Source of the DNA: an uncultured Elusimicrobiaceae bacterium
GTDB lineage: Bacteria; Elusimicrobiota; Elusimicrobia; Elusimicrobiales; UBA9959
Direction: 5' to 3'
Length of the DNA stretch: 64,000 bases
Assembly (NCBI GenBank): GCA_964415175.1
Contig: CAYPYG010000003.1
Span: forward strand, 65,586-129,585
Both the position numbers and the translations under genes were made by a program. Under the pieces are notes generated by a model, which was not told the DNA's origin, ran no database searches, and saw nothing but the letters and a program-made list of their open reading frames with translations. Shown piece after piece: positions 3 to 53,351 of this stretch. Position 1 is the stretch's first letter, and the number at the start of each line of letters is the position of its first letter.

Positions 3-791
3 CTGCCGGACCTGCCCAAGATAATAAAGCTGGCCGCGAAGATCGGCTATCCCTGGATACAGGTGATGAGCAACGGCCTGAGGCTGGCCGATAAGGCCTA
101 TACGCGCTCCCTGATAGGGGCCGGGGCCAACCTGTTCCGCCTTTCGCTGCACGGCCCCGGGCCGGAGATACACGACCGGCTCGTCGGGGTGGACGGCGCC
201 TTCGCGAAGCTGACGGCCGCTTTCGGCAATATCAGGGAAGGCGGCGCCGAGCTCTGCGTCAACATGGCGCTCAACGCCCCCAATTACAGGTCGCTGCCGG
301 AGATGCTCGGACTGATAACCGGGCGTTTCGGCGTGCGCGACTTCAACATCATCTTCCCTCATTACAGCGGCATGATGGCCAGGAACGCGGACCTGCTCAA
401 GGTCAGCGTCACCAGGGCCGTGCCGTACCTGAGGAAGGCATTGGCGCTTCTGAAGGAGACCGGCGTACGCCCGGAGAGCCGGATACTCATAAATTTCTGC
501 CCCTGCAATATACCCGAGGCGGCCCACCTGATGGCGGAATGGGACCGCCCGGAGCGGGCGGAGGACGACGAGCCGCTCTACTACGTGGAGGGGAAGACCG
601 ACGCCGTTTACTCGGTCAAGGAACGCATACGGGTAAAGAACAAGTCCTGTTCCCGCTGCGTCTACGACAAGGTCTGCATGGGTTTCGAGAAATGGTACGC
701 CGACGTTTTCGGCCGCCGCGAGTTCCGCCCCGTACTCCGCAAGCCGGCCCCTTTCCCGCTGCGGCCGCTGCCCCGCCGGAAAGTCGCCTGA
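3..791 (+). CDS. Radical SAM protein, C-terminal portion (5' end outside window)
   Basis: The frame is open from base 3 (LPDLPKIIKLAAKIGYPWIQVMSNGLRL), so the GTG at 63 is internal. It has barrel-like strands (VMSNG, RLSLHG). The C-terminal NFCPCN...CSRCVYDKVCMG (Cx2Cx5C) tail is shared with 6508-7434 and with the tail of 50095-51885. Confidence 0.6.
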   Translation: MPDLPKIIKLAAKIGYPWIQVMSNGLRLADKAYTRSLIGAGANLFRLSLHGPGPEIHDRLVGVDGAFAKLTAAFGNIREGGAELCVNMALNAPNYRSLPEMLGLITGRFGVRDFNIIFPHYSGMMARNADLLKVSVTRAVPYLRKALALLKETGVRPESRILINFCPCNIPEAAHLMAEWDRPERAEDDEPLYYVEGKTDAVYSVKERIRVKNKSCSRCVYDKVCMGFEKWYADVFGRREFRPVLRKPAPFPLRPLPRRKVA

Positions 792-8810: not shown

Positions 8811-8842
8811 GATTAAATATATTGTATCGTTTTATTGTCAAG
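8811..8842 (+). promoter_or_regulatory. AT-rich promoter-like element upstream of 8845
   Basis: Sequence gattaaatatattgtatcgttttattgtcaagg has ATTGTA at 8821-8826 and ATTGTC at 8834-8839, immediately upstream of ATG 8845. It is the same motif class as 846-851, 13004-13009 and 30705-30710. Confidence 0.3.
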
Positions 8843-8844
8843 GT

Positions 8845-9516
8845 ATGCGCTTTTTAATTCTCGCGTCCATAACCATTTTCTCCTTTTACGGCTGCTCCCC
8901 CGCGACCTACCGGCTGGGACCGGACGCCCACGCGGATTTCGCCGCCCTGACCTCTCCTCTCACGGAGGGGCGGGACTATTCCGTGGAGGTCTATGACCGC
9001 GGCGCGGAGGTGACTGTCCTGGCGCCTCACGGCGGCGACCTGGAGCGCGGCACCTCGCGCCTGGCCCGGTCCGTGGCCGGCGCCGACTGGAACCTCTATA
9101 TCTTCAACGCCTGGCTGGGGCGGGGCAGCGGCCGGCTGCACCTGACCTCGGCCAATTTCGACGACCCCCGGGCCCTGGACCTGGCGGGCCGCTCCCGGCT
9201 CGCCGTCTCGCTGCACGGCCAGGCCGAGAAGGGCAGATGGGTCTGCGTCGGCGGCGCCAACGCGGAGGCCGGCCGGCTGGTGTCGGAGGCGCTGGAAAAG
9301 GCCGGTTTCAGGACGCAGTTCCCCTGCCGGCGCCTGCCCGGCCGCTCGCCCCGGAACCTGACCAACCGGGCCGCCGCCGGCGGCGTACAGCTGGAAGTCA
9401 GCCTCTCCCTCCTGCGGGAACTTGATAAAGGGGGGGAGGATTTACCAGAATTTACGCTCGCCGTCAGGAAAGGCCTGTCGGCCGCTTTAAAGAGCATCAA
9501 GGAGACTCCCAGATGA
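8845..9516 (+). CDS. Lipoprotein, poly-gamma-glutamate hydrolase-like (DUF867/PghP-like) family
   Basis: Lipobox-like signal MRFLILASITIFSFYGCS. Contains VLAPHGGDLERGTS, LAVSLHG and GGVQLEVS, motifs typical of the DUF867/PghP zinc hydrolase fold. Confidence 0.65.
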   Translation: MRFLILASITIFSFYGCSPATYRLGPDAHADFAALTSPLTEGRDYSVEVYDRGAEVTVLAPHGGDLERGTSRLARSVAGADWNLYIFNAWLGRGSGRLHLTSANFDDPRALDLAGRSRLAVSLHGQAEKGRWVCVGGANAEAGRLVSEALEKAGFRTQFPCRRLPGRSPRNLTNRAAAGGVQLEVSLSLLRELDKGGEDLPEFTLAVRKGLSAALKSIKETPR

Positions 9517-10613: not shown

Positions 10614-10623
10614 GGCGCGAACG

Positions 10624-11865: not shown

Positions 11866-11894
11866 GGGCCGGCCGCGCGGCGGCCGGACGGAGC

Positions 11895-38648: not shown

Positions 38649-40942
38649 AGGATGCCGCCGTCAGACCGCCGGAGCGGGAGGTCGAGGTCCACGGGCCTTC
38701 GCTGACCCCGGCGAAGGCCGCCCCGCTGCTGCGTACGGGCGCCGAGGTCTGGGCCGTTTTCGAAGGCGCGGCCGGCGCGCGCGCTACGGCGGCCGCGCTC
38801 GCCGCCCTTCCCCCGGACCTGCTCCGGCGGGTATGCGTGTCCGGCGTTTTCGGCCCCGCCGACGCCGGCTCGCTGCTGCGCTCCGCCCGGCTCTTCCGCA
38901 AGACGGACATAAAAGAACTGGTCTTCGAACTGGACGCGCGCGCCGCGTGGAGGGGAAAGGGGCTGGCGCGGCTGCGCGCGGAGCTGAAGCGGATAGCCCT
39001 GGACTTCGCCCGCGAACTGCGGTCGGGTTCGTTCCCGTGGCCGCAGCCGAGCCGCCTCTACGGCATCGACCTGGCCGGAGGTTCCTTCGCCCCGCCCGGC
39101 GCAGCCGCCGCGGTAAGGAAGGAGATCGGGCCTTTCGCCGCCATAGAGAGGAAGCTCCGCCGCCTGGCCGCCGGGGACGCGGCCGGGGCCCTGGAATTCT
39201 TCCAGCCCCTCACGGCCCGCGGCTTCCGCGGCCGTATCGGGCGCAAGGCGGAGACTCTCAGGCGGCTGGCCGCGTCCGGCAGGGCCGTGCCGCCGTCCTA
39301 CGTGCTTTCGGCGGGAACGCTGCGGCGCCTGTCGCCGGCGCTCGGCGCGGACCGGCGGGGGCCGTCCCCGCGCGGCGCCGGCCTCCGGTTCCTGGCCGAA
39401 CTGCGCGGGCTTTTCCCGGCGGGCCGCCGCTTCATCGTCAGGAGTTCCTCCGCCGAAGAGGACGGGCCGGGCGCTTCCTTCGCCGGGGTCTTCCGCTCGG
39501 AAGTGGTCGCTTCGCCGGGCGCCGCTCCCGCCGCGATACGGCGCTGCCTGGTCTCCGGGCGGGACGCGGGAGCGGCCGCCTACAGGCGTCTCGCCGGCCG
39601 CGGCCGGCGGCCCGCCGGAGGCATGGCGCTGCTGTTCCAGCCTTTCGTAGAGACCGGGCTCGGGGGCGTCGCCGTCTTCGACGGGCAGGGCCGGGCCGTC
39701 ATGGAACTTTCCCGCGGCGGCAACGACGGCATAACGGGCGGCCGTTCCGCCGACTGGCGTTATACTCTCGACGCGCGCGCCCGCCGCCTGGACTGCCCGC
39801 CGCGCTCCCCGCTGTCCCGTTCCGCGGCCGCGCGGCTGCTCTCGGCGCTGGCCTCCGCGAAGAGCGCTCTGTTCCCGTCGGGCGCCGCCTCGTTCGAATT
39901 CCTGGCCGGGGAAGGAGAACCCCTTTTCCTGCAGGCGCGCCCCCTGCCGCGCGCGCCCGAAGAGCCGCGCGCGGACATGCCGGCCGTCTACGCGCGCATA
40001 GCGGCGGCCATGGCCGGCCTCGGCCTCGGGCCGCGCGGCTGGAGCCTGGCCGAGACGGCGGACGTGGCGGCCTTCAATTTCCTCGGCCTCGCGCGGCCGG
40101 CGGGAGAACGCCTGGAACATTTCCGCGTCAGGATAAGCCGCGCGGCCAGGGAGAAGATCTCCCCGCGCGGCTGGGTCAGCGTCAAGTACGACGACGACGA
40201 CGACACTCTTTTTCCCTCCGGGCTCCCGCCGCTCCGCCGCGCCGCGCTGGAACGCCTGGCCGAAGAGGGGATATTCGTCATTTTCGTGCTGCCGAAAGAA
40301 GGCGAGACGGTCCTGCGGAGGACGCTCTCTTTCCCCGCGCCGGGCGGCCGGCTGCGCGTCCCGTTCTCCTATTCCCCCGAAGGGCTGGAGAAGGAGGAGG
40401 AACGCGACCTGCTCCGGCGCGGCCCGGCGGAGGCGGCCGCCTGGCTGAGGCGCCTGGCCCGCGAACGGGAGATCTGGCTGGGCGTGCGCCGCGTCGTCCG
40501 GGCCGGAAAGACCGGGGCCTACGGCCGGGCGCTGGCCCGCTTCCTCCCGGGGGAACTGGCGCTCATAGCGCGCAAGGAGCGGCTGGCGCGCCGCGCGGCC
40601 GCGCGCGCTCCCGGGGACGGCGCCGCGGTAAAAGGGCTGCCTTTCCGCCCGTCCGACGCGGTAGTCTCCGGCGTGGCCGTGACGGCCGCCCGGGCCGCCG
40701 CCTGGAAAGGCGGACCCTTCGTCTATTTCGGCCACGACCTGGAGCCCTGTTTCCTGCCGCTGATGGGCCGCATAAAGGCGGTCGTCGTCTCGCGGGGGGC
40801 CTTCGGTTCCCACGCGGCGCAGATCTGCTCGGAACTCGGCGTCCCGCTGATACTCGAAACGTCCAACCTGGGCCTGGTCAGGGACGGCGACCGGGTCGCG
40901 CTGGACCTGCGCACCGGGGAAGTGAGGAGGAAGCCGGAATGA
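38645..40942 (+). CDS. PEP-utilising-enzyme-like phosphotransferase (ATP-grasp PPDK_N-type domain + C-terminal swivel-His domain, no TIM-barrel domain)
   Basis: GTG start with GTGA overlap at 38645-38648. The central region has RIGRKAETLRRLAASGRAVPPSYVL and FIVRSSSAEEDGPGASFAGVF (PpsA/PPDK nucleotide-binding domain). The C-terminal end has VVVSRGAFGSHAAQICSELGVPLIL (phospho-His mobile domain). The N-terminal ~190 aa are unassigned. Confidence 0.75.
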   Translation: MKDAAVRPPEREVEVHGPSLTPAKAAPLLRTGAEVWAVFEGAAGARATAAALAALPPDLLRRVCVSGVFGPADAGSLLRSARLFRKTDIKELVFELDARAAWRGKGLARLRAELKRIALDFARELRSGSFPWPQPSRLYGIDLAGGSFAPPGAAAAVRKEIGPFAAIERKLRRLAAGDAAGALEFFQPLTARGFRGRIGRKAETLRRLAASGRAVPPSYVLSAGTLRRLSPALGADRRGPSPRGAGLRFLAELRGLFPAGRRFIVRSSSAEEDGPGASFAGVFRSEVVASPGAAPAAIRRCLVSGRDAGAAAYRRLAGRGRRPAGGMALLFQPFVETGLGGVAVFDGQGRAVMELSRGGNDGITGGRSADWRYTLDARARRLDCPPRSPLSRSAAARLLSALASAKSALFPSGAASFEFLAGEGEPLFLQARPLPRAPEEPRADMPAVYARIAAAMAGLGLGPRGWSLAETADVAAFNFLGLARPAGERLEHFRVRISRAAREKISPRGWVSVKYDDDDDTLFPSGLPPLRRAALERLAEEGIFVIFVLPKEGETVLRRTLSFPAPGGRLRVPFSYSPEGLEKEEERDLLRRGPAEAAAWLRRLAREREIWLGVRRVVRAGKTGAYGRALARFLPGELALIARKERLARRAAARAPGDGAAVKGLPFRPSDAVVSGVAVTAARAAAWKGGPFVYFGHDLEPCFLPLMGRIKAVVVSRGAFGSHAAQICSELGVPLILETSNLGLVRDGDRVALDLRTGEVRRKPE

Positions 40943-43187: not shown

Positions 43188-44546
43188 ATGTCCGTTTTCC
43201 GACCCACGAGGCTGGAGATCTTCCTCACCAACAAGTGCAACCTCAGGTGCACCTACTGCTCCTCCAGGCATCTCCTGGCCGGCGCGGCCAGGACGCTGTC
43301 CGCCCCCGCGCTTAAAAGAGCCGTCTCCGTCTTCGCCGCCTACGGCCCGGGGCCCGGCGGCCCGCGCACCATCTGCTTCACCGGCGGCGAGCCGCTGCTG
43401 GAGTTCCCCCTGCTGAAGGAGGCCGTGCTCCACATCCGCTCTCTGCGCGAGCGCTTCGATATCACCGTCAACACCAACGCCACCCTGCTCGACCGGAGCA
43501 AGGCCGCCTTCCTGGCCCGCAGCGGCGTCTACCTGGCCGTCAGCCTGGACGGGGGGAAGGAAGTCCACGACGCCCACCGCGTCTTCGCGGGAGGGGGGAA
43601 GGCCTCGGTCTACGACGCGCTGCTGCGCAACCTGCGCGCGCTGCCGCCGGATTCCCTGTCCGGCGTGCGGGCCTCCGTGACCGTCACCTCGCGCACGATG
43701 CCGTCGCTGCCGGACACCATAGAGACCCTGCAGGACATGGGTTTCCGTTTCGTCGAACTGGGGCTGGACGCCTACGAGCGCTGGACGCCGGCCGGGCTCC
43801 GCGCCCTGGGGCGGACGCTGGACGCCCTGCGGGGCCGCTACGCCGCCGCGCTGGCCTCGGGCGACCCCGCCAGGATCGCCCGCGTCTTTTCCTTCTCTCT
43901 CGAGAACAAGCGGCAGAAGGCCGGCTTCTACACCCCGCTGGGGGATGTTTCGCTTTCGCCGGAGGGGATCTTCTACCCGTCGGATACGCTGGCCACGGCC
44001 GCCGAGGGCGGCGCGGATTTCGCCGTGGGGGACCTGGAGAAGGGGATAGACGAGTCGAAGCTGCGCGCCGTCTACCGCCGGGCGGCCGCGATCATACCGC
44101 CCGGCGCGCGCGCGGAAGGAGCCTTCTCCCCCGTGGACAGGTGCCTCTACTGCCTCGTCCACGGCCTGGACCCGCGCGCCCTGCTCGCCGACGCCGCGGC
44201 CGCCAACCGCCTTTTCTCGGAGAAGATAGGCGGCCTGCTGGAAGTGCAGCGGGTCTGGCGCGAGCTGGCCAGGGACAGGGAGTTCGGCGACCTCGCCCAC
44301 GCGCCGAGGCAGGCCGCCTCCAAACCCGTGCGGCGGCTGGCCGTCGCGGCCGGAGGACTTTCGCCGGCCGCCCTGCGCGCCGCCGCCGACTTCGCCCTTT
44401 ATTCGCCCTCCCCGTCGGTGCGGCTGCGGCTGGCCGCCGGCCGCGGCGGCGGGCCCGCCCTGGGGACGGCGGCGGTCTACTCCTCGCTCAAGGCCAGGCT
44501 GCTGGGCAAAAAGCTGCGCCTGGCGGCGGAGGCGGACCTCTTATGA
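43188..44546 (+). CDS. Radical SAM paralog P11
   Basis: RLEIFLTNKCNLRCTYCSS; TGGEPLLEF; SLDGGKEVHDAHRVF; EFGDLAHAPRQ; LKARLLGKKLRL. Confidence 0.85.
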   Translation: MSVFRPTRLEIFLTNKCNLRCTYCSSRHLLAGAARTLSAPALKRAVSVFAAYGPGPGGPRTICFTGGEPLLEFPLLKEAVLHIRSLRERFDITVNTNATLLDRSKAAFLARSGVYLAVSLDGGKEVHDAHRVFAGGGKASVYDALLRNLRALPPDSLSGVRASVTVTSRTMPSLPDTIETLQDMGFRFVELGLDAYERWTPAGLRALGRTLDALRGRYAAALASGDPARIARVFSFSLENKRQKAGFYTPLGDVSLSPEGIFYPSDTLATAAEGGADFAVGDLEKGIDESKLRAVYRRAAAIIPPGARAEGAFSPVDRCLYCLVHGLDPRALLADAAAANRLFSEKIGGLLEVQRVWRELARDREFGDLAHAPRQAASKPVRRLAVAAGGLSPAALRAAADFALYSPSPSVRLRLAAGRGGGPALGTAAVYSSLKARLLGKKLRLAAEADLL

Positions 44547-45865
44547 GCGCGGGACTTTTCTCGAGGCGGCTGGACATCTTCGTCACCAACAGGTGCAACC
44601 TGGACTGCGACTACTGTTCCTCCAGGGGGATGCTCGGCCCCTCCGCCGCCCGCTCCCTGTCCGCCGCGGAACTGCGCCGGGCCGTGGACCTTTTCGCGGC
44701 TTGCGGGCCGGGGGGCGGGGAGCCGCGCACCATCGCTTTCAGCGGCGGGGAGCCTTTCCTCGAGTTCGACGCGGTCGCCGCCGCGGCGCGCTATATCCGT
44801 TCCCGCCGGGAGAAGTTCCTCGTCAGCGTGACCACCAACGGCACGCTGCTGACCCGCGACAGGGCCCTGCGCCTGCTGGACGAAGGGGTCTGCCTGGTGC
44901 TGAGCGTGGACGGCGGCCGCGCCGCCACCGACCGCCACCGCCGGTTCCGCTCCGGCGGCGCTTCCGTCTTCGGCGCCGTGAAGAGGAACCTCGGGCGGCT
45001 GCCGGCCAGCGCGCTGAACCGGCTGCACGTGACGCTGACGCTCACCTCCCGCACGATAGCGTCCGTGGCGGAGAGCGCGCGCCTGCTGGAGGAGATGGGC
45101 TTCGCTTCCGTCGAGATAGGCCTGGACGTCTACGAGACCTGGACCCCGGAGAAGCTGGCCCTGCTCGGCCGGGCCCTGGCGTCCTTCCGGGACCGCGCGC
45201 TGCGCTCCGCCGACGCCGGCGTCCTGCGGCGCGGCGGCGGACTGGTCTTCCGCTCCTTCTTCCAGGACTACGACGCCGGCGAGAAAGTGCTGCCTTTCGA
45301 TACGCTCTGCCTTTCCCCCGAAGGCGTCTTCTTCCCCTGCGACGCGCTCTGCGCCGCCTGGCCGCGGCAGGACCGCTACTCGGTCGGCGACCTGCGCCGC
45401 GGAGTGGACCTGCGCCGCCTCCGGCGGATATACGCCGGCGCCCTGTCCTTCATCCGCCGCCGCGGCCGGGCCGACGGCGTGCTCTCGCCCGTCGACAGGT
45501 ACTTCTTCGCCCTGGCCAGGGGGACCGACCCGGCCGCGCTGCTGCGCAACGGGGCCGAGGTGGACCGGATCTTCGACAGGGAACTGGGAGGCCTGGCCGG
45601 GGTGGAGAAATGCGCCGCCTCGGCGCGCTTCGCCCCGGCCGCGCCCGCGCCCTTCCGCTCGGCCCGGGCGGCCCTTCCCGGCGGGCCGGCGGCCTGCGGC
45701 GCCGTCCGCTCGCTTCTCTCCGGCGCCGGCGACAAAACCCTTTCGCTGCGGTTGCCCGGCGGCAGCGGCCGGCCGGCGGCCTCCGGCCCGCTCGCGCTCT
45801 ATTCGCTGCTGGCCGCCCGCGGCCGCCGCGGCAGGTTCGCCCTTTCGCTGGAGGCCGGCGCATGA
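44543..45865 (+). CDS. Radical SAM paralog P12 (C-terminal motifs degenerate)
   Basis: RLDIFVTNRCNLDCDYCSS; SGGEPFLEF; SVDGGRAATDRHRRF. The GFGDF and LYSPG motifs are not recognisable. ATGA overlap at 44543-44546. Confidence 0.8.
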   Translation: MSAGLFSRRLDIFVTNRCNLDCDYCSSRGMLGPSAARSLSAAELRRAVDLFAACGPGGGEPRTIAFSGGEPFLEFDAVAAAARYIRSRREKFLVSVTTNGTLLTRDRALRLLDEGVCLVLSVDGGRAATDRHRRFRSGGASVFGAVKRNLGRLPASALNRLHVTLTLTSRTIASVAESARLLEEMGFASVEIGLDVYETWTPEKLALLGRALASFRDRALRSADAGVLRRGGGLVFRSFFQDYDAGEKVLPFDTLCLSPEGVFFPCDALCAAWPRQDRYSVGDLRRGVDLRRLRRIYAGALSFIRRRGRADGVLSPVDRYFFALARGTDPAALLRNGAEVDRIFDRELGGLAGVEKCAASARFAPAAPAPFRSARAALPGGPAACGAVRSLLSGAGDKTLSLRLPGGSGRPAASGPLALYSLLAARGRRGRFALSLEAGA

Positions 45866-47283
45866 ACCGCTCCTCCGCCCTCCGCGCGCTTCAGCTGCTG
45901 CCGGCCAGCCTTGAGATCTACCTGACCTCCGCCTGCAATATGCGCTGCGGCTATTGCTCCAGTTCCGCCATCGTGAACGGCCCGGCCCGGCGCCTGACGG
46001 CGGGGCAGGTGAAGCGCGGCATAGATATTTTCGCCGCCCTCTGTTCGCCCCGGACCGCGGCGGCCGCCGGCGGGGACCCCAAGTTCCGGGTCGTCGGCCT
46101 GACCGGCGGGGAGCCGCTGCTCGAGTTCGGCGCCGTCGCAGCCGCCGTCGAGCACGTGCGCAAGAACCACAAGCGGCTCTCGGTGACGGTCTCGACCAAC
46201 GGCCTGCTGCTGGACCGGGAGAAGGCGCGGTTCCTGCTGGACCGGGACGTGGACCTCACGGTCAGCCTGGACGGGCCGCGCCGGGCCACGGATTCCCAGC
46301 GGCGCTTCGCGGCCGGCGGGGGCTCCGTATCCGCCGCGGTGCTGCGCCGCCTCGCGCGGCTGCCCGCCTCCTATCTCCGCCGCATGCGCGTGATGGCCAC
46401 CTTCACCCCGGATACCGCGCCGGACATCGCCGGCAGCGTGCGCTTCCTGCGGAGGCTCGGTTTCGCCGCCGTGGAGGCCGACCTCGACATGTACGCCGAC
46501 TGGACCGCCCGCGACCTGGCCCGCCTGCGCGCCGGCCTGGCCCGCCTGCGCGGCCTCTACATGCGGGGTTTCCGCGACGGGGACTGGACCTCCGACTGGG
46601 GGGATATCTTCGGCGGCGCGCTGCAGAACAAAGTGCGCGGCGCCGGCCCCTACGAGGCCTTCCACGAATTCTCCCTCTCCTGCGACGGCTGGTTCTACCC
46701 GGCCGACGTGCCCGCCCTGTTCGGGCCCGGGCCGGGTCCCGGCGCTTTCGCCGTGGGCGGCCTGGAAAAAGGCGTCGACCTCCGGCGGCTTAAAGGATAT
46801 TTCGACGGGGCCGCCGCCTTCCTGGGGCGCCGCTCCGGTACCGGCGAGGCGGTGCCGCCCGCCTGCCGCTATTTCAACGCCCTGGCCAGGGGGCTCGACC
46901 CCGCCGCCGCGATGGCGGGTTTCGGCCGCCTCTGCGCCGCGTTCGACGAAGAGCTCGGCGGCCTGCTGCGCCTGGAGCGCGTCTTCCGCCGGCTGGCCCG
47001 CGCCCGCGATTTCGGGGACTTCTCCCATCGGCCGAGAACCCTGCCCCGCCACCGGGCGGCTTCGCTCGCCGTGCATCCGTCCGCAGGACTCGGCGCGGCG
47101 CGCCGCGCCGCCGACGGGGCGCTCTATGCCCCCGGCCGCCGCAAGGTCCTGCGCTTCGCCGATCCGGGACCGGCCGGGCGCGGCGACGCGCTGGGGCTGG
47201 CCCTCTATTCCGCCCTCAAGGGCGCCTGGCTGGGCGGGAAGCCGCGCGTCGCCCTGGAATCCGGCGGCGGGAGGTCCTCGTGA
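45862..47283 (+). CDS. Radical SAM paralog P13
   Basis: SLEIYLTSACNMRCGYCSS; TGGEPLLEF; SLDGPRRATDSQRRF; DFGDFSHRPRT; ALYAPGRRKVL; LKGAWLGGKPRV. ATGA overlap at 45862-45865. Confidence 0.85.
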   Translation: MNRSSALRALQLLPASLEIYLTSACNMRCGYCSSSAIVNGPARRLTAGQVKRGIDIFAALCSPRTAAAAGGDPKFRVVGLTGGEPLLEFGAVAAAVEHVRKNHKRLSVTVSTNGLLLDREKARFLLDRDVDLTVSLDGPRRATDSQRRFAAGGGSVSAAVLRRLARLPASYLRRMRVMATFTPDTAPDIAGSVRFLRRLGFAAVEADLDMYADWTARDLARLRAGLARLRGLYMRGFRDGDWTSDWGDIFGGALQNKVRGAGPYEAFHEFSLSCDGWFYPADVPALFGPGPGPGAFAVGGLEKGVDLRRLKGYFDGAAAFLGRRSGTGEAVPPACRYFNALARGLDPAAAMAGFGRLCAAFDEELGGLLRLERVFRRLARARDFGDFSHRPRTLPRHRAASLAVHPSAGLGAARRAADGALYAPGRRKVLRFADPGPAGRGDALGLALYSALKGAWLGGKPRVALESGGGRSS

Positions 47284-48689
47284 GCCGCGCTGTCCCTCTC
47301 CCGGCCGCGCGCCGGCTGCGCGCCGTCCCCTCTTCCCTGGACATATACATGACGGACGCCTGCAATATGCGCTGCGGCTACTGCGCCAGCGCCAGGTTCA
47401 TAGAGGGCGGCGGGGCCAGGACGCTGCCGCCGCGGCTCCTGCTGAGGGGAGTGGACGCCTTCGCGGCGCTGGTCGCCCCCCGCCGCGGCGCGGCCGATCC
47501 TGCCGCGGTGAGGGAGATCTCCTTCACCGGCGGCGAGCCGCTGCTCCGCTGGGACCTGCTGAGGGATTCGGTCCGGGCGATAAAGCGCGAATACCCCTGG
47601 CTCAAGCAGACCGTCTTCACCAACGGCACTCTGCTCACGCCGGAAAAGGCGGACACGCTGCTGCGCGCGGGCGTCAGGATAGTGGTGAGCCTCGACGGCG
47701 GCCGCGCCGTCAACGACCGGCACCGCCGGCTGGCCGACGGCCGCCCCGGCTTCGCGGCCGTGGCCGCGAACCTGCGCCGCCTCGGCGCCGCCCGCCGCGC
47801 GGAGCTGCACCTGATGGCCACCTTTACCTCCGCTACCGCCGGGAAACTGGTCGATACCGTGCGGCTGTTCAGGACCTTCGGCTGCCGCGACATACATCTC
47901 GGCCTGGACCTTTACGAGGACTGGTCCCCCGCGGCCCTGGCCCGCCTGCGGGCCGCCCTGGCGGAACTGCGCGGCTACTGCCTGCGCGGCGGCGCCGCCG
48001 TCCGGGGGCCGGGCGGGGACTGGGATTTCAACTTCTATTTCAAGGACCGCGTGTCCGCCTGCCTCGACCTGACGCCGTCGAACTCCTTCACCCTCTCGCC
48101 CGACGGCTTCTTCTATCCCTGCGACGAGCTCTGCATCTCGGCCGCGGACCCGGCGAAGTACGCCGTCGGGTCGGCGGAGAGCGGCCTGGACCTGCGCCGG
48201 CTGGAACGGGTCTACTCCGCCGTGGAGCGGCGCGTGAGGGGGCTGGACCTGGTCAACGGCGTGCTTTCGCCCATAGACAGGTATTTCCGCGCGGTACTGG
48301 ACGGGCGCGACCCGTCCGCCTCCCTGCGGGCCGGCGGGCGGGTGACGCGCGTCTTCCTGGAGGAGCTCGGCGGGCTGGTGGAAGTGGAGCGGCTTTTCAA
48401 ACTGCTGGTGCGCGCGCCCGGTTTCGGCGATCTCATGCACCGGCCCCGCCACGCCCTGCGCGCCGGGGCCCGCCGCGCGCGGCTGTCCGCGCCGGCTTCG
48501 CCCGCCGCGCTGGCGGCTTCGCGGGCCGCCGCGGACCTGCTGCTTTACTCCCCGGGGAAGCGCAAGGAACTGGTCCTGCGGAGCGAAGGGGCTTTCGGCG
48601 AGGCGGCCCGCGGCCTCGCCCTCTACGCGGCGCTCAAGGGCGCGCGGCTCGGCGGGCGGACCCGGGTGGGCCTGGAGGCGGGCCGGTGA
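47280..48689 (+). CDS. Radical SAM paralog P14
   Basis: SLDIYMTDACNMRCGYCAS; TGGEPLLRW; SLDGGRAVNDRHRRL; GFGDLMHRPRH; LLYSPGKRKEL; LKGARLGGRTRV. GTGA overlap at 47280-47283. Confidence 0.85.
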   Translation: MSRAVPLPAARRLRAVPSSLDIYMTDACNMRCGYCASARFIEGGGARTLPPRLLLRGVDAFAALVAPRRGAADPAAVREISFTGGEPLLRWDLLRDSVRAIKREYPWLKQTVFTNGTLLTPEKADTLLRAGVRIVVSLDGGRAVNDRHRRLADGRPGFAAVAANLRRLGAARRAELHLMATFTSATAGKLVDTVRLFRTFGCRDIHLGLDLYEDWSPAALARLRAALAELRGYCLRGGAAVRGPGGDWDFNFYFKDRVSACLDLTPSNSFTLSPDGFFYPCDELCISAADPAKYAVGSAESGLDLRRLERVYSAVERRVRGLDLVNGVLSPIDRYFRAVLDGRDPSASLRAGGRVTRVFLEELGGLVEVERLFKLLVRAPGFGDLMHRPRHALRAGARRARLSAPASPAALAASRAAADLLLYSPGKRKELVLRSEGAFGEAARGLALYAALKGARLGGRTRVGLEAGR

Positions 48690-50077
48690 AAAAGAACCCC
48701 GCCCTTCCGCTCTATCCGCGGGCCGAATTCCCCCGGGAGCTGGACGTCTGCCTGACCGACGCCTGCAACCTCGACTGCCGCTACTGCTATTTCACCGCCA
48801 AGGCCAGGACCGCGCCGTCCTCCCTCTCGCCGGCGCAGGTTGAGCGGGCGCTGGACCTTTACCTCGAGCGCCTGCCGGCCCGGCGCGTGCAGAAGTTCAG
48901 CTTTTCCGGCGGCGAGCCGCTGCTGCGCTGGGACTCGCTCATAAGCGGCGTGGCCTCCGCCCGCCGCCGGCTGGGCCCGCGGCCCAATATCGAAGTTTTC
49001 ACCAACGGCACCCTGCTCGACCGGCGTAAGGCGGAGGCCCTGCTGGCGCACGACCCCGAGCTGGTCATAAGCCTGGACGGGCCGCGCGCGGTCTGCGACG
49101 CGGGCCGCCGCTTCTACGGCCGCGGCGGCTCGGTATTCGACGCCGTCGACCGCAATCTCCGCGCGCTCGGGCGGGGACTGGTCTCGCGCTGCTTCGCCGG
49201 CTCCACTTTCAGCGCCGCGACGGTCTCCAGGATGCGCGAGAGCGTGGAGTACCTGCTGGAGCGCGGCTTTAAATGCGTGATAGTGGACCTGGACGTCCTG
49301 GCGCGCTGGGACCGGCGCGCGCTGGACGTCCTGCGCCGGCAGGCGGAGGGCCTCAAGAAACTTTACTCCTCTTCCATGAACCTGGGTTTCGGCGAGGTGC
49401 AGCAGCGGCTGCGCTTCGACTTCCTGATCTCGCGGGAGGAGCTGCGGCAGGTGGCGCGCCCCGCGGGGCTCAGGGAACTTTCCCTGGCGCCCGACGGGAA
49501 GTTCTACCCCAGCGGGCTGGTCTCCGGGCGCGGCGCGGAGAAGGCGCGCTACGCCGTCGGCAGCCTCGCGGAAGGTTTCGACACGGACAGGATGAACGCC
49601 GTGCTGGGCGAGCTGCGCGGCTATTTCGGCCGGCACGCCAGGAGCGGCTACAACGGCTGCCCCACCCACGTCTATTTCGCCTGCCGCCTGGAGGGGCGCT
49701 CCGCGGAGGAGGTCTTCGATTCGGGCGAACGCCTGTTCGGGGCGCTGGACCCGGTAGTGGGCCCCGTCATAGATTTCGAGCTGCTGCAGAACTCCCTGGC
49801 CTCGGCGAAGGACCTCGGGGATTTCGATCACCCGCCGCGGCTGGCGCCCGCCGCGGGCCCGGCGGAGCTGAGGCTCTCCCTTTCTCCCGGGGCGGGCCGG
49901 GCCAGGGACGCCGCGGACGCGGCGCTTTATTCGCCCGGCCCCTGCAAGCGCCTGGAACTGGCGGCCGCGGAGAACGACCCGCCCGACGCGCTGCGCCGCC
50001 TCGCGGCCTATTCCCTGATGAAGGCGCGGCTGCTGGGGAAGAAAGTCAGGCTCGCGGTCGCGGCGGGGGCCGATTAA
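48686..50077 (+). CDS. Radical SAM paralog P15
   Basis: GTG start with GTGA overlap at 48686-48689. ELDVCLTDACNLDCRYCYF; SGGEPLLRW; SLDGPRAVCDAGRRF; DLGDFDHPPRL; ALYSPGPCKRL; MKARLLGKKVRL. Confidence 0.85.
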   Translation: MKKNPALPLYPRAEFPRELDVCLTDACNLDCRYCYFTAKARTAPSSLSPAQVERALDLYLERLPARRVQKFSFSGGEPLLRWDSLISGVASARRRLGPRPNIEVFTNGTLLDRRKAEALLAHDPELVISLDGPRAVCDAGRRFYGRGGSVFDAVDRNLRALGRGLVSRCFAGSTFSAATVSRMRESVEYLLERGFKCVIVDLDVLARWDRRALDVLRRQAEGLKKLYSSSMNLGFGEVQQRLRFDFLISREELRQVARPAGLRELSLAPDGKFYPSGLVSGRGAEKARYAVGSLAEGFDTDRMNAVLGELRGYFGRHARSGYNGCPTHVYFACRLEGRSAEEVFDSGERLFGALDPVVGPVIDFELLQNSLASAKDLGDFDHPPRLAPAAGPAELRLSLSPGAGRARDAADAALYSPGPCKRLELAAAENDPPDALRRLAAYSLMKARLLGKKVRLAVAAGAD

Positions 50078-50094: not shown

Positions 50095-51885
50095 ATGGCC
50101 ATGGACGATACGCAACTCAGGGCGCTTTTCGGGCTGATGGACGCGGAGAACCCGCCCGAATACCCGCCCCATTACCCGCCGCCCGCGCTCTGGAAAAAGA
50201 CCTTCTCCGGCGCGGACGCCGCCGCCGCCTGGCGGCGCGCGCTGGCTCGCCGCGGCGACCTGGTCCTCTACGTCCACCTGCCTTTCTGCCGAGAGGTCTG
50301 CGCTTTCTGCGGCTTCTACGCCCGCCCCTGCCCCGGTCCCGGCGCCGTCGACGATTATCTCTCCGCGCTGGAGAGGGAGGCGGCCCTGCTCTCGCCCCTT
50401 TTCGCGGGCCGCCGCTTCAAATGGCTCTGTTTCGGCGGCGGCACGCCGTCGCTGCTCTCCGGCCCGCAGCTGGAGCGCCTCTTCGACGCGGTGAAAGGGA
50501 ACTTCCGGCCCGCGCGGGGGGCCCGCACCGCCTTCGAATCGCACCCGGACAGCCTGGACCCGGCCAAGCTGCGGCTGCTCAAGAAGCTCGGCGTGGACTG
50601 GCTTTCCATCGGCGTGCAGACCTTCGACGACGGGGTGCTGAAAAAGAACGGCCGCCGGCAGGACAATTCCAGGGTGCCGGGCCTGGTGCGCGCCGCCCGG
50701 GCCGCGGGCATAAAGAACGTCCAGCTCGACCTCATCGCCGGCCTGCCCTTCCAGTCCCGGGAGGCTTTCGAGGCCGACGTGGAGAAGGCCGCGCGGCTGG
50801 ACCCCGAGCGCATCTACCTCTTCCCGTTCCAGGCCAAGGAACGCGTGCGGCTGAAGGCGCGGCAGGCGCCCTGGCTGTGGGAGGCCTACCGCCGCGCGGT
50901 GGAGTCGCTCTCCCGGCGGGGCTACGAGCTCAGCTGCGGCCGCTGGCTTTATAAAAGGAGCGGCGGCGACTGGCCTTACAGCTACGACCAGGGCGAGCGC
51001 ATGTCCCGCGATTTCTACTCGGTGCTGGGTCTCGGCGCCGGCGCCATCTCCTACGCCAGGTACGGCGCGCGTTACCAGAACCTGGCGGACCCCGCCGACT
51101 ACGCGCGGGCGCTGTCCGGCGGCCGCCTGCCCGCGGCCAGGGGCTGCCGGCTGGGCGAAAAGGAGGAGGCGCTCAATTTCCTCCTGCTCAATTTCCTCCA
51201 GCGCGGCGCGCTGGACCGGCGGGAATTCCGCTCCGTCTTCGGCCGCGGCCCGCGCGGCGCCTTCGGCCGGGTCCTGGACTCGCTGGCCGCCGACGGTACG
51301 CTGGTCGCCTCCCGGGACGGCTGGCTCCTGGACGACAGGGAGAACGGCCTGTTCCGTCTCAGGAAGGCCTTTTACCCGGCGCGGCCGCTGACCGCCGCCG
51401 CGCGCGGCTGCGGCCGGCGCCTGGTCTCCGCGGCGCGCGCCGCGCGCCGGCCTTCCGCCGCGACGGCAGGGAGCGGCCGCGACGGCGCCCCCGGCACGCT
51501 CGTTTTCGAAGCGGGGCGCGCCCCTTTCGCCGCGCTCGCGCCCGCGCTGCTGCGGGAGATAAAAGCGCGCCGTCCCGTGACGGTCCTTCTCTACTGCGCC
51601 GGGCCCGGGCCGGGCCCCGCGCTGCCGCGCCTGGCGGAGCTGGTCGGCCGCGCGGGGCTGAAGGCGGCCGTCAACCTGCCGCCCTGCCTGCTGCCCGGCC
51701 TGCCGCGGCTGCCACAGGCCGCGCCGGCCGGGAGCGGCGATCCCGGCGTCTTCCGGCCGGAAGGCTGGGTCAAGCCGGCGCGCTGCGCCGACTGCGCGCT
51801 GCAGCTGGAATGCCCGGGCCTGGACGCCGCCTACGCCGCGCGCCACGGCGCGCGGGCGGTGAAGCCGCTGAGGAGGCGCCCGTGA
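50095..51885 (+). CDS. HemN/HemW-family radical SAM protein with ~130-aa Cys-containing C-terminal extension
   Basis: Start at ATG 50095 (MAMDDTQ). LYVHLPFCREVCAFCGFY matches the HemN-type cluster motif. Also GGGTPSLL and SIGVQTFDD. The tail (~51493-51882) has NLPPCLLPG...CADCALQLECPG (Cx2Cx5C), as in 3-791 and 6508-7434. Confidence 0.85.
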   Translation: MAMDDTQLRALFGLMDAENPPEYPPHYPPPALWKKTFSGADAAAAWRRALARRGDLVLYVHLPFCREVCAFCGFYARPCPGPGAVDDYLSALEREAALLSPLFAGRRFKWLCFGGGTPSLLSGPQLERLFDAVKGNFRPARGARTAFESHPDSLDPAKLRLLKKLGVDWLSIGVQTFDDGVLKKNGRRQDNSRVPGLVRAARAAGIKNVQLDLIAGLPFQSREAFEADVEKAARLDPERIYLFPFQAKERVRLKARQAPWLWEAYRRAVESLSRRGYELSCGRWLYKRSGGDWPYSYDQGERMSRDFYSVLGLGAGAISYARYGARYQNLADPADYARALSGGRLPAARGCRLGEKEEALNFLLLNFLQRGALDRREFRSVFGRGPRGAFGRVLDSLAADGTLVASRDGWLLDDRENGLFRLRKAFYPARPLTAAARGCGRRLVSAARAARRPSAATAGSGRDGAPGTLVFEAGRAPFAALAPALLREIKARRPVTVLLYCAGPGPGPALPRLAELVGRAGLKAAVNLPPCLLPGLPRLPQAAPAGSGDPGVFRPEGWVKPARCADCALQLECPGLDAAYAARHGARAVKPLRRRP

Positions 51886-53351
51886 AGAAAAAGGAGACGC
51901 TGCCGATAGGCTCCTTCGACATCTGCCTGTCCAACCGCTGCAACCTGGCGTGCCGGTACTGCTATTTCGATTCCATAAACCGGGGCGCGCCGCGGTTCCT
52001 GGACTTCGCGGCCGTGAAGAAGGCCGTCGACGCCTATGTCTCCCTCGTTTCCGTCAGGGGCATAGACAAGATCAGCGTCGCGGGCGGCGAGCCGTTCCTG
52101 GATTTCCCGCTGCTGCTGAAGATAGCGAAGTACATACGGCGTTCCTGCGGGCCGCGGACGGAGATAGAGGTCTTCACCAACGGCACGCTGGCGACGCCGG
52201 AGAAAGTGCGGCGCCTGCTTCCCTACACCGGCAAGATAGTGGTGAGCCTGGACGGCGGAAAGGGGAGCAACGATCTCAACCGGGTCTTCCTGAAAGGCGG
52301 AGGTTCGGTCTTCGAGGCCGTGATGAACAATCTCCGCGGCCTCACCGCGGCGGAGCGGCTGAAGGTGTGCGCCAGCATGACGGTGACGGCCGCCACCGCC
52401 GGCGGCCTCTGTTCCAATGTGCGGTTCCTGCGCGGGCTGGGCCTGGGCGAGGTGCAGATAAACCTGAACCTGCTCGAGCGGTGGTCCGCCCCGTCGCTGG
52501 AGCGTCTGCGCGCCTCGGTCCGGGAACTGAAGTCCTATTACGGCGCGCTGGCGGCCGCGCGGCTGCGCTCCTTCGAGGGTTTCCGCTTCGGCCTGGAGTA
52601 CATCCTGCTCAAATGGGACGAGACTCTCAGCGAGAGCGGGGTCTTCAAGGAGATCTCCGTCGCGCCGGACGGTCGTTTCTATCCCTGCGGCATAGTCTCC
52701 ACTTACGGCCCGCAGAAAGAGGTTTTCGCCGTCGGTTCGCTGGAAAAGGGGTTCGACCGCCGCCGTCTTCGTTCGCTGCGCGGCAAGGCCGTCCGCGCCA
52801 TGCTGCCCGCGGACCGCGGGATAGGGCTGCTGGAATACATCCCCAACCCGATGCTGCTCTATTTCGAGACCCGGCTCAAAGGCGAGGACCTGCGGGAGGT
52901 CTTCGCCAACGCGCGCCGCGTCTTCAAGGTCTTCTACGACGAGCTTTCCGTCTTCCTGCGGCTGGAGAGGTTCTTCGACATCCTCTCCAGCGACCCGCTG
53001 GTGGGCGACTTCTCCCACGAGCCGCCCTTCAGGTCCGGAAAGGGACTGCGGTCCCTGGCCGTCGCCATGGGCGAGCCCGGCCGACCGGCCGCCAAGGCCT
53101 GCGCCTGCGGCAAGGGCTGGGTCGGTTTCCCGGGCCTGGCGCAGCGGCGGCGCGCGGCCGACCTGCTGCTCTATTCCCCCGGCGGGAACAAGGAGCTGCG
53201 GCTGCGCTCGGAGCGTCCGTCGGAGGAGTTCGAACTGACCGGCTCCGCGGCCGTCTACGCGGCCCTCAAGGCCCGCGCGCTGGGAGGAAAGCTGAAGGTG
53301 AAAGTGGAACTCCCGCCGGGCGGCGTCACTTCTTCTTCTTCACGTACTTGA
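51882..53351 (+). CDS. Radical SAM paralog P16
   Basis: GTG start with GTGA overlap at 51882-51885. SFDICLSNRCNLACRYCYF; AGGEPFLDF; SLDGGKGSNDLNRVF; LVGDFSHEPPF; LLYSPGGNKEL; LKARALGGKLKV. Confidence 0.85.
   Translation: MKKKETLPIGSFDICLSNRCNLACRYCYFDSINRGAPRFLDFAAVKKAVDAYVSLVSVRGIDKISVAGGEPFLDFPLLLKIAKYIRRSCGPRTEIEVFTNGTLATPEKVRRLLPYTGKIVVSLDGGKGSNDLNRVFLKGGGSVFEAVMNNLRGLTAAERLKVCASMTVTAATAGGLCSNVRFLRGLGLGEVQINLNLLERWSAPSLERLRASVRELKSYYGALAAARLRSFEGFRFGLEYILLKWDETLSESGVFKEISVAPDGRFYPCGIVSTYGPQKEVFAVGSLEKGFDRRRLRSLRGKAVRAMLPADRGIGLLEYIPNPMLLYFETRLKGEDLREVFANARRVFKVFYDELSVFLRLERFFDILSSDPLVGDFSHEPPFRSGKGLRSLAVAMGEPGRPAAKACACGKGWVGFPGLAQRRRAADLLLYSPGGNKELRLRSERPSEEFELTGSAAVYAALKARALGGKLKVKVELPPGGVTSSSSRT

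What the first reader, a model, noticed from the sequence alone, without database searches (positions are those of the whole stretch)
50095..51885. HemN-family rSAM carrying an extra Cx2Cx5C tail shared with two small rSAMs of the locus
The HemN-type motifs (LYVHLPFCREVCAFCGFY, GGGTPSLL) are clear. After the HemN-like region, a ~130-aa extension (~51493-51882) contains NLPPCLLPG...CADCALQLECPGLDAAY. The same layout ends the products of 3-791 (NFCPCNIP...CSRCVYDKVCMGFEKWY) and 6508-7434 (NFPLCRLG...CSRCRLEPACCGARKDY). This looks like a partial SPASM/twitch-type auxiliary-cluster motif grafted onto a HemN scaffold. I do not know that combination from characterised HemN, HemW, ChuW or HutW proteins. 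HemN relatives act on tetrapyrroles or haem, which supports a tetrapyrrole-like substrate.
Basis: partly seen in the sequence, partly recalled or inferred. Interest (0 to 1): 0.6.

Follow-up and report, generated by a model that had tools for sequence, protein, structure and literature searches.

The report
HemN-like enzyme with relic second radical-SAM domain
This gene encodes a HemN-type radical-SAM enzyme joined to the shrunken remnant of a second, HxsC-type radical-SAM domain; only that domain's four-cysteine end-cap, probably an extra iron-sulfur site, has been strictly kept, inside an Elusimicrobia nitrogenase-like gene cluster of unknown function.

Summary
The 596-aa product of 50095-51885 has a complete HemN fold (residues 1 to about 445). 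A ~130-aa extension follows, ending in PxC...Cx2Cx5CxG. The same ending closes the two small rSAMs at 3-791 and 6508-7434, and no other ORF in the window has it.

The interpretation needs correcting. The tail is not a SPASM/twitch piece grafted onto HemN: no SPASM HMM matches it and the 7-Cys motif is absent. It is the C-terminal cap of an HxsC-like ~300-aa rSAM unit. About 20 Elusimicrobia orthologue clusters show the history. Six carry a full second rSAM domain with its own CX3CX2C after the HemN part. Others have lost that motif. The window protein and three other lineages have deleted most of the barrel. The four tail cysteines are invariant in all 21 sequences.

The cap is widespread: 2536 representative proteins match it, mostly tandem rSAM units, and it has no Pfam model. 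Published HxsC mutagenesis treats this region as a second 4Fe-4S site.

The most likely function is an auxiliary Fe-S site serving the HemN-like active site. This is an inference. The tetrapyrrole-substrate argument is weak. I rate it a new variant of a known kind, of moderate interest.

The parts
50095..51885 (+). Focal gene: HemN-like rSAM fused to the relic of an HxsC-like rSAM domain (596 aa; the start may instead be the ATG at 50101)
   Evidence: Translation; GC3 frame plot; 20 orthologue clusters
50287..50310 (+). CX3CX2C (C65, C69, C72) of the HemN-like rSAM core. The next residues are G-F, so HemN's fourth Cys is absent
   Evidence: (invariant)
50434..50451 (+). GGGTPS SAM-binding loop (res 114-119)
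   Evidence: Invariant in A2; aligned to HemN GGGTP
50257..51429 (+). HemN-fold body: rSAM barrel (Pfam 59-231) plus a HemN_C-like helical/winged region (~355-445)
   Evidence: Pfam Radical_SAM 73.5 bits; Foldseek 1OLT E=1e-28, TMt 0.78, 427 columns; AF2 pLDDT mostly 80-96
51430..51495 (+). Ala/Arg/Ser-rich linker (res ~446-467); residues 453-464 are predicted disordered
   Evidence: pLDDT <50 for 453-464; variable in A2
51496..51672 (+). Relic of the second rSAM barrel: strand-helix-strand-helix-strand (res 468-526). It aligns to strand 1, helix 1, strand 2, helix 2 and the last strand of the full second domain in long orthologues. CX3CX2C and the middle of the barrel are deleted
   Evidence: A2 alignment; AF2 elements E468-472, H478-492, E496-500, H510-519, E523-526, pLDDT 80-92
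51673..51882 (+). Four-Cys cap (res 527-596): C531 (51685-87), C564 (51784-86), C567 (51793-95), C573 (51811-13), G575, Y580
   Evidence: Invariant in 21/21 orthologues; C1 93% and C2-C4 100% in 284 tail instances from 144 representative proteins
3..791 (+). Small HxsC-like rSAM, 5' end cut by the window edge; tail at about 408-755
   Evidence: HxsC4 match runs to model end 335/335; E=2e-22 against the second domain of P0019
6508..7434 (-). Small HxsC-like rSAM (308 aa; CX3CX2C at C22/C26/C29; tail Cys C231, C266, C269, C275; tail about 6511-6822)
   Evidence: all 7 Cys invariant in 41 sequences; AF2 pLDDT 93
48686..50077 (+). Upstream PapB-like rSAM. Its GTG start overlaps the stop of the preceding rSAM gene (GTGA)
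   Evidence: same gene order in L005 and L001
51882..53351 (+). Downstream PapB-like rSAM. Its GTG start at 51882 overlaps the focal stop TGA 51883-85 (GTGA)
   Evidence: same gene order in L005 and L001

Best explanation
The gene encodes a two-part radical-SAM protein. Residues 1 to about 445 form a complete, apparently active HemN-fold enzyme. It has CX3CX2C, GGGTP, the residues aligned to HemN E145, R184 and D209, and a HemN_C-like domain. This part belongs to a clade of its own, distinct from the HemN, HemW, ChuW/HutW, HemZ and STM4012 models.

Residues ~468-596 are what remains of a second, HxsC-type rSAM domain that was fused to the C-terminus in the ancestor of this Elusimicrobia clade. 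In this genome the second domain has lost its own CX3CX2C and the middle of its barrel, so it can no longer cleave SAM. Its terminal four-Cys cap (PxC...CX2CX5CxG) is strictly retained.

Inferred: the cap ligates an auxiliary [4Fe-4S] cluster, as proposed for the equivalent CX2C of HxsC and as the CX2CX5C triad does in SPASM enzymes.

More speculative: this cluster gives the HemN-like active site a built-in redox partner. It could accept the electron in an oxidative step such as decarboxylation or desaturation, as the auxiliary clusters of AhbD and anSME do. Alternatively it could relay electrons to or from the translationally coupled neighbouring rSAMs. The protein acts as one step in the multi-rSAM, nitrogenase-like (Group VI NFL) pathway, whose substrate is unknown.
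For: HemN body:
- Pfam Radical_SAM.
- NCBIfam best hits are STM4012 198, hemN 156, HemZ 135, HemW 127 and HutW 127 bits, all below their cut-offs.
- Foldseek to 1OLT gives E=1e-28 over 427 columns.
- phmmer gives 1OLT 120 bits and NocN 96 bits.
- E148, R187 and D212 are invariant.

Fusion origin:
- P0009, P0010, P0012, P0013, P0014 and P0019 have a second CX3CX2C, GGEP and other core motifs.
- Pfam finds two Radical_SAM stretches in P0013 and P0019, and in two representative-library proteins with the same architecture, P0269 and P0363.
- The second domains score best against HxsC4/HxsC.
- The P0019 second domain aligns end to end with window 3-791 (E=2e-22, 250 aa, through the tail).
- The P0013 second domain aligns with 6508-7434 at E=3e-9.

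Decay with retention:
- In an NJ tree of the HemN part, intact forms are scattered through both sub-branches, while motif-less and deleted forms are derived several times.
- The four Cys are invariant in all 21 sequences.

Generality of the cap:
- 2536 representative proteins match at E<=1e-3, mostly 2-4 tandem units.
- 30 of the 124 two-tail proteins have only one CX3CX2C.
- Among the 284 tail instances, C1 is present in 93% and C2-C4 in 100%.

Fe-S role: the HXS paper describes a 'second 4Fe-4S cluster domain' in HxsC, and C342A/C345A impairs HxsA processing (PMC13128918).

Operon context: GTGA start/stop overlaps with flanking rSAMs. The order rSAM, fusion, rSAM is conserved in L001, L005 and L006. 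Stand-alone tail-bearing rSAMs lie in the same clusters.
Against: - There is no direct evidence that the cap binds Fe-S rather than Zn, or binds any metal.
- AF2 confidence in the Cys region of the focal protein is low (pLDDT 42-73), and I could not read coordinates to check that the four thiols converge.
- The tail profile matches no solved structure and no Pfam family.
- The HXS paper's 'second cluster' is an annotation backed by a mutant phenotype, not by spectroscopy.
- The electron-acceptor role is an analogy only.
- The NJ tree has no bootstrap support.
- One orthologue (P0020) sits outside any rSAM cluster, and none of the four distant orthologue loci examined shows Nfl genes within 10 kb. 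The link to the nitrogenase-like system is therefore not obligatory.
Confidence: 0.65

Rival explanations
1. One reading: a partial SPASM/twitch auxiliary-cluster domain was grafted directly onto a HemN scaffold.
For: CX2CX5C is the core of the SPASM motif. HxsC-like cores score second-tier against twitch and SPASM enzymes such as MoaA, NirJ, AhbD and PqqE. Foldseek aligns the small-rSAM model to anSME over 284-291 of 307 columns, longer than most other hits.
Against: No PF13186 or TIGR04085-type hit for the whole proteins or for the isolated tails, even at E<=10. The X3C, GX4C and terminal Cys are absent. AF2 predicts short helices and loops, not the SPASM/twitch beta-hairpin. Long orthologues show that the tail arrived as part of a complete rSAM domain, not as a separate module.
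Confidence: 0.15
2. The four-Cys cap is a structural zinc site or a docking/oligomerisation knob with no redox role. It is kept because it holds the HemN-like enzyme in a complex with the neighbouring rSAMs.
For: Four Cys including a CX2C pair can bind Zn. The cap survives wherever its own rSAM unit is catalytically dead. Translational coupling with neighbours suggests a complex. HxsC forms a complex with HxsD (PMC13128918).
Against: The C...CX2CX5C spacing is typical of rSAM auxiliary [4Fe-4S] sites rather than zinc ribbons (CX2C...CX2C). All relatives are Fe-S enzymes. The HxsC paper assigns this region as a 4Fe-4S domain.
Confidence: 0.15
3. The extension is a functionless evolutionary remnant on its way to being lost.
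For: The second domain has clearly decayed, by loss of CX3CX2C and by three different internal deletions. Confidence in the focal model's Cys region is low.
Against: Five residues are invariant and five more nearly invariant in the tail across sequences only 36-60% identical overall. No orthologue has lost the cap despite repeated deletions next to it. GC3 coding signal continues to the stop codon.
Confidence: 0.05

Closest known systems
HemN / CpdH, oxygen-independent coproporphyrinogen III dehydrogenase (E. coli, PDB 1OLT)
   Same: Same fold over ~427 residues, including the C-terminal domain. Shares CX3CX2C, GGGTP and the residues aligned to E145, R184 and D209.
   Different: 26% identity. 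Scores 156 bits against a cut-off of 325 for TIGR00538. The fourth Cys of CX3CX2CXC is replaced by Phe. It has a clade-specific CGRWxYKxxGGDWPYSYDQGE block and an N-terminal PPEYPxHYPPP motif. It carries the extra ~150-aa relic domain with four Cys. HemN has no auxiliary cluster.
Class C rSAM methyltransferases and other HemN-like enzymes (NocN 9P2U, ChuW/HutW, HemW, STM4012 family)
   Same: HemN-like core. NocN is the second-best solved relative by sequence (96 bits). STM4012 is the best NCBIfam model (198 bits).
   Different: All models score below their cut-offs. HemW's CXHNX2YW motif (PMC13495026) is absent. None of these families carries a second rSAM domain or a Cys cap; relatives are 370-470 aa.
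HxsC / HxsC4 radical SAM maturases (TIGR03977, NF038332) of the His-Xaa-Ser antiphage system
   Same: Best-scoring family for the two small rSAMs, for the second domain of the long orthologues and for the tandem-unit proteins, with matches running to the ends of the models. HxsC has a C-terminal CX2C called a second 4Fe-4S domain, with a mutant phenotype (PMC13128918).
   Different: Scores of 57-184 bits are below the cut-offs of 268 and 500. No family scan returned HxsA or HxsD, and HxsB-model hits on the window's rSAMs are far below cut-off. In the focal protein only the last ~130 aa of the unit survive.
SPASM/twitch rSAM enzymes with auxiliary clusters (anSME 4K37, AhbD, PqqE, MoaA, BtrN)
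   Same: They also carry an auxiliary Cys-ligated Fe-S site C-terminal to the barrel, and share the CX2CX5C triad. From my knowledge of anSME and AhbD, their auxiliary clusters serve as an electron route for oxidative radical chemistry, including propionate-to-vinyl decarboxylation of a tetrapyrrole by AhbD.
   Different: No HMM match. Only four Cys are present, enough for one site. The fourth ligand candidate is upstream (PxC, right after the last strand) rather than downstream. No beta-hairpin is predicted.
Group VI nitrogenase-like (NFL) loci of Elusimicrobia (Meheust et al. 2020; Chem Rev 2026 review)
   Same: The window has three NifH-like/NifD-like fusions plus NifK-like genes and about 16 rSAM genes. 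Orthologues are named Elusimicrobia/Elusimicrobiales. The paper notes an rSAM with a HemN_C domain in GWA2_69_24.
   Different: The papers do not describe the C-terminal relic domain, its HxsC-type origin or the four-Cys cap. I did not test NifH phylogenetic placement.

Membership tests
HemN/CpdH (TIGR00538 equivalog) | Whole-protein score at or above the curated cut-off | tested here: not met
   156.2 bits against cut-off 324.95; only residues 26-247 match
HemN/CpdH | HemN three-dimensional fold, including the C-terminal domain | tested here: met
   Foldseek 1OLT E=1e-28, TMt 0.78, 427 of 434 columns. Pfam HemN_C PF06969 gives no hit at E<0.01, but it is on record (faint) for the orthologue P0008 and listed for P0008, P0017 and P0018
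HemN/CpdH | Fourth conserved Cys, CX3CX2CXC (Cys71 in E. coli HemN; from my knowledge of Layer et al.) | tested here: not met
   The sequence is CREVCAFCGF; HemN has CHKLCYFCGC at the aligned position
HemW (TIGR00539) | Score at or above cut-off, and the CXHNX2YW motif (PMC13495026) | tested here: not met
   127.5 bits against 205.4. The protein contains no CxHNxxYW; its only similar stretch reads CGRWLYK, and I did not align it to a HemW sequence
ChuW/HutW (TIGR04107) | Score at or above cut-off | tested here: not met
   127.4 bits against 400
STM4012 family rSAM (NF006067) | Score at or above cut-off | tested here: not met
   198.3 bits against 380, although this is the best model and covers residues 51-406
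SPASM domain (PF13186 / 7-Cys motif) | HMM match | tested here: not met
   No PF13186 hit for the three whole proteins at E<0.01 or for 14 isolated tails at E<=10
SPASM domain | CX9-15GX4C, gap, CX2CX5CX3C, gap, C (two auxiliary clusters) | tested here: not met
   Only C(23-54 aa)CX2CX5C is conserved. The position +4 after the last Cys is never a conserved Cys
Twitch domain (single auxiliary cluster) | One auxiliary [4Fe-4S] bound by Cys C-terminal to the barrel, with a beta-hairpin | tested here: inconclusive
   Four invariant Cys are compatible with this. No hairpin is predicted. Cluster binding cannot be tested here
HxsC-like rSAM unit (TIGR03977 / NF038332) | Best-matching family across the unit, including its C-terminal end | tested here: met
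   HxsC/HxsC4 are the top hits for 3-791, 6508-7434, three of the four second domains tested (P0010, P0019, P0009; second and third behind TrsS for P0013) and five of the six tandem-unit or single-unit representatives scanned. Matches reach model positions 288/292 and 335/335
HxsC equivalog / HXS system | Score at or above cut-off, and the partners HxsA, HxsB, HxsD | tested here: not met
   Scores are 39-92 bits for the window's two small rSAMs and the orthologues' second domains, and reach 259 (HxsC) and 385 (HxsC4) bits for the tandem-unit protein P0242; all are below the cut-offs of 268 and 500. No scan returned HxsA or HxsD, and HxsB-model hits on neighbouring rSAMs are 53-86 bits against 370
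Group VI NFL locus (Meheust 2020) | NifH-like plus divergent NifD/K-like genes next to many rSAM genes in Elusimicrobia | tested here: met
   Three Fer4_NifH+Oxidored_nitro fusions, each followed by an Oxidored_nitro gene, with about 16 rSAM genes. Orthologue names are Elusimicrobia
Group VI NFL locus | NifH placed in the Group VI clade by phylogeny | not tested
   No NifH tree was built

The most novel reading that the evidence does not exclude
The ancestral and still extant long forms (P0009, P0010, P0012-14, P0019) are true two-active-site radical-SAM enzymes: a HemN-type site plus an HxsC-type site on one chain. The reduced form in this window shows that what matters to the HemN half is the partner's auxiliary Fe-S cap. 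On this reading the cap is a built-in electron acceptor or relay, the component that E. coli HemN lacks and whose physiological equivalent is, to my knowledge, still unidentified. The protein would then be a HemN-fold enzyme with an auxiliary cluster, something no characterised family member examined here has, and a handle on the chemistry of the Group VI nitrogenase-like pathway.
Probability: 0.25. Interest if true: 0.7.

Novelty: new variant of a known kind. Interest (0 to 1): 0.5.

Why it matters
HemN-like enzymes form a large, functionally diverse and mostly mis-annotated family. None of the characterised members I could check (relatives; review PMC10114718) has an auxiliary cluster domain or a second rSAM domain. 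This clade offers a natural deletion series running from full second rSAM, to motif-less barrel, to bare cap. The series isolates the four-Cys cap as the part under selection.

The cap is also a widespread, unmodelled module. It occurs in 2536 representative proteins and has no Pfam family. It marks the end of HxsC-type rSAM units, including many tandem-unit proteins and pseudo-rSAM units. A domain model for it would improve annotation.

Finally, the gene sits in the Group VI nitrogenase-like cluster, which a 2026 review still lists as of unknown function. Knowing which rSAMs carry redox-active auxiliary sites narrows the biochemical hypotheses for that pathway.

Tried and rejected
- Tail-only profile (A3) against PDB sequences gave only designed repeat proteins and eS26 at E>0.007, which is noise.
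- Tail-only sequences against Pfam at E<=10 gave nothing relevant.
- NCBIfam on the isolated focal tail gave no family.
- Foldseek of the small-rSAM model against PDB returned generic rSAM barrels: GDGT-MAS, DesII, NifB, viperin. It does not settle the SPASM question.
- I looked for tetrapyrrole support. A TP_methylase gene lies near the P0013 orthologue, but it matches no NCBIfam model at E<=1e-8. I do not count it as evidence.
- I checked whether orthologues always sit beside Nfl genes. Within 10 kb they do not, so I dropped the idea that the fusion is tied specifically to the nitrogenase-like genes. It is tied to rSAM-rich clusters.
- I considered a frameshift or assembly artefact creating the long ORF. 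I rejected it because the fused ORF recurs in about 20 clusters from NCBI, JGI, ENA and Logan assemblies.
- A literature search for 'two/tandem/dual radical SAM domains' found nothing relevant.
Full report
**Observation**

The window is 68% GC, and a GC3 frame plot gives a clear gene map. The products of 3-791 (+, cut at the window edge) and 6508-7434 (-) end as described. The three C-termini align with an invariant pattern: N, C, then CX2CX5C-x-G, Y and G.

The similarity is statistically real:
- BLASTP of the focal tail against 3-791 gives E=6e-6.
- hhalign of the focal tail against a 41-sequence profile of the 6508-7434 family gives E=1.3e-5 over 76 columns that include all four Cys.
- A tail HMM run over all six-frame ORFs of the window finds only these three proteins.

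**The HemN part**

Sequence evidence:
- Pfam sees only Radical_SAM, at residues 59-231.
- NCBIfam ranks STM4012 family (198 bits), hemN (156), HemZ (135), HemW (127.5) and ChuW/HutW (127.4). All are far below their cut-offs.

Structure evidence:
- An AF2 model built on the orthologue alignment has mean pLDDT 82 and pTM 0.81.
- Foldseek places it on E. coli HemN 1OLT with E=1e-28, TM 0.78 normalised to HemN, and 427 aligned columns of 434.
- The whole HemN architecture, including the C-terminal domain, is therefore present within residues 1 to about 445.

By sequence, the only solved relatives are HemN (120 bits) and the class C methyltransferase NocN (96 bits).

The fourth Cys of HemN's CX3CX2CXC is Phe here, and the protein contains no HemW-type CXHNX2YW motif (PMC13495026). 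The clade instead has its own invariant block, CGRWxYKxxGGDWPYSYDQGE, and an N-terminal PPEYPxHYPPP motif. It is a HemN-like enzyme of its own kind, not a member of any named equivalog.

**What the tail really is**

A search of 5.8 billion proteins gives a sharply bounded clade of about 20 clusters (332-1271 bits), all from Elusimicrobia MAGs and 591-799 aa long. Scores then drop to ordinary 370-470-aa HemW/HemN proteins at 166 bits or less.

Aligning the clade and listing motifs explains the tail. The orthologues fall into three states:

| State of the second domain | Members |
|---|---|
| Complete second rSAM domain with its own CX3CX2C (e.g. FECHPTYECNADCLFCYNG), GGEP and NG motifs, ending in the same tail | P0009, P0010, P0012, P0013, P0014, P0019 |
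| Second barrel kept, CX3CX2C lost | P0007, P0008, P0015-18, P0020 |
| Different internal deletions of the barrel | window protein with P0001-3; P0004-6; P0011 |

Further support:
- Pfam finds two Radical_SAM stretches in P0013 and P0019, and in P0269 and P0363, two representative-library proteins with the same architecture.
- The second domains score best against HxsC4/HxsC.
- The P0019 second domain aligns with the window's small rSAM 3-791 over 250 residues, through the very end of the tail (E=2e-22).
- The P0013 second domain aligns with 6508-7434 at E=3e-9.

In the focal model the relic forms a confident strand-helix-strand-helix-strand unit (468-526, pLDDT 80-92) after a disordered linker (453-464). 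The Cys region that follows is less confident.

An NJ tree of the HemN part places intact two-motif forms in both sub-branches (no bootstrap). A complete rSAM domain cannot plausibly be rebuilt from a relic, so the fusion is ancestral and the window's form is derived. Throughout, C531, C564, C567, C573 and G575 are invariant in 21 of 21 sequences.

**The cap is a general module**

The small rSAM 6508-7434 has more than 120 Elusimicrobia orthologue clusters. In 41 aligned sequences all seven Cys are invariant: C22, C26, C29 plus C231, C266, C269, C275.

A profile of 14 tails searched against 1.84 billion representatives gives 2536 hits at E<=1e-3 and 242 at E<=1e-10. Most are 580-1300-aa proteins with two to four matched stretches. 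These are tandem ~300-aa rSAM units, each closed by the cap.

In 284 tail instances from 144 proteins, the first Cys is present in 93%, the CX2CX5C triad in 100% and the Gly in 98%. Thirty of the 124 two-tail proteins have only one CX3CX2C. A dead rSAM unit that keeps its cap is therefore a recurrent theme, not a peculiarity of this gene. NCBIfam assigns these proteins to HxsC/HxsC4, with matches running to the ends of the models.

**Is it SPASM or twitch?**

By sequence it is not:
- No PF13186 hit for whole proteins or for isolated tails at E<=10.
- No PDB sequence match.
- The X3C, GX4C and terminal Cys of the 7-Cys motif are absent.

**Function**

Shown:
- An intact HemN-type rSAM site.
- A catalytically dead relic of a second rSAM domain.
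- An invariant four-Cys cap.
- GTGA start/stop overlaps linking the gene to the downstream rSAM, and linking the two upstream rSAMs to each other.
- A conserved gene order of rSAM, fusion, rSAM in relatives, with stand-alone cap-bearing rSAMs in the same clusters.

Inferred: the cap binds an auxiliary [4Fe-4S] cluster. Support comes from the HXS study, which describes a second 4Fe-4S domain in HxsC whose C342A/C345A mutant impairs substrate processing (PMC13128918). It also comes from the role of CX2CX5C in SPASM enzymes, which I cite from my own knowledge.

Speculative: the cluster acts as an internal electron acceptor or relay for the HemN-like reaction, by analogy with AhbD and anSME.

- HemN-like enzymes act on many non-tetrapyrrole substrates (review PMC10114718; NocN is the second-best solved hit).
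- No tetrapyrrole gene is in the window.
- The 13 long rSAM paralogues resemble peptide maturases such as PapB, CcpM and Nif11-type enzymes.

**Context and novelty**

The window matches the published description of a Group VI nitrogenase-like locus of Elusimicrobia. It has three NifH-like/NifD-like fusions, each followed by a NifK-like gene, and about 16 rSAM genes. This locus type was described by Meheust et al. 2020, who noted an rSAM with a HemN_C domain in GWA2_69_24 and proposed tetrapyrrole reduction. A 2026 review still lists it as of unknown function.

Neither paper describes the relic domain, its HxsC-type origin or the cap. I found no literature on HemN-like proteins with a second rSAM domain or an auxiliary cluster.

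I rate it a new variant of a known kind, of moderate interest.

Noticed in passing
window 877-3378/3356-4669; 17215-19683/19661-20959; 21023-23644/23644-24945 (+): There are three paralogous sets in which a NifH-like ATPase (Fer4_NifH, res 3-260) is fused in one ORF to an Oxidored_nitro (NifD/K-like) domain, each followed by a second Oxidored_nitro gene. The published descriptions of Group VI NFL systems that I read speak of separate NflH, NflD and NflK, so the H-D fusion may be unreported.
   Followed up: partly
window 11874-12968, 14149-15666, 24946-26400(-), 26406-27905(-), 28039-29427, 32100-34283, 34280-35845, 35728-37251, 37248-38648, 43188-44546, 47280-48689, 48686-50077, 51882-53351: Thirteen paralogous rSAM genes score best against peptide-maturase models (PapB, CcpM, Nif11-type, HxsB), all below cut-off. 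None has the 7-Cys SPASM motif. Some keep the SPASM-like 'PDGxxYP' hairpin with the Cys replaced (LAPDGKFYPSG) or single (APDGRFYPCG). They look like maturases without SPASM cysteines, which raises the possibility of a peptide or protein substrate rather than a tetrapyrrole.
   Followed up: partly
window 44593-47283 (+): The 896-aa mechanical ORF is really two genes. The frame plot switches at ~45.9 kb, and the syntenic relative L005 has two rSAM genes (440 and 473 aa) there.
   Followed up: partly
window 5552-6511 (-), next to the small rSAM 6508-7434: A peptidase_U32-family protein whose only NCBIfam hit is UbiU, the O2-independent hydroxylase component (49 bits, below cut-off). It abuts the cap-bearing small rSAM and hints at anaerobic hydroxylation chemistry in the pathway.
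   Followed up: no
window 7530-11865: An amino-acid-type gene block lies inside the rSAM/NFL cluster: OTCase-like carbamoyltransferase (-), poly-gamma-glutamate hydrolase-like, amino-acid kinase-like and a PLP-dependent (PALP) enzyme. A PEP-utilising/PPDK-like protein (38645-40942) and an aldo-keto reductase (30795-32090) are also present. Their role is unexplained.
   Followed up: no
window 48686-48689 and 51882-51885: GTGA overlaps, in which a GTG start overlaps a TGA stop, join consecutive rSAM genes. This implies translational coupling along the rSAM row.
   Followed up: yes
representative proteins P0242, P0245, P0247, P0250, P0268 etc.: There is a large, apparently unnamed class of proteins built from 2-4 tandem HxsC-like rSAM units (580-1300 aa), each closed by the PxC...CX2CX5CxG cap. 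In about a quarter of the two-unit proteins one unit has lost CX3CX2C. No Pfam model covers the cap.
   Followed up: partly
P0243 (1233 aa) and P0251 (1138 aa): Other very large proteins combine a GGGTP-containing (possibly HemN-like) unit with three Radical_SAM stretches and cap motifs. HemN-like/HxsC-like fusions may therefore have arisen more than once.
   Followed up: no
L006 (JGI 3300045051 contig, orthologue P0016) and the P0015 contig: These loci have rows of 11-12 consecutive rSAM genes around the fusion gene, including at least five stand-alone cap-bearing small rSAMs. No nitrogenase-like gene lies within 10 kb. The rSAM super-cluster can therefore exist apart from the Nfl genes.
   Followed up: partly
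L001 4743-5492 (-), near orthologue P0013: A 249-aa TP_methylase (PF00590) gene lies inside the rSAM cluster and matches no NCBIfam model at E<=1e-8. It is either an atypical tetrapyrrole-type methylase or unrelated.
   Followed up: partly
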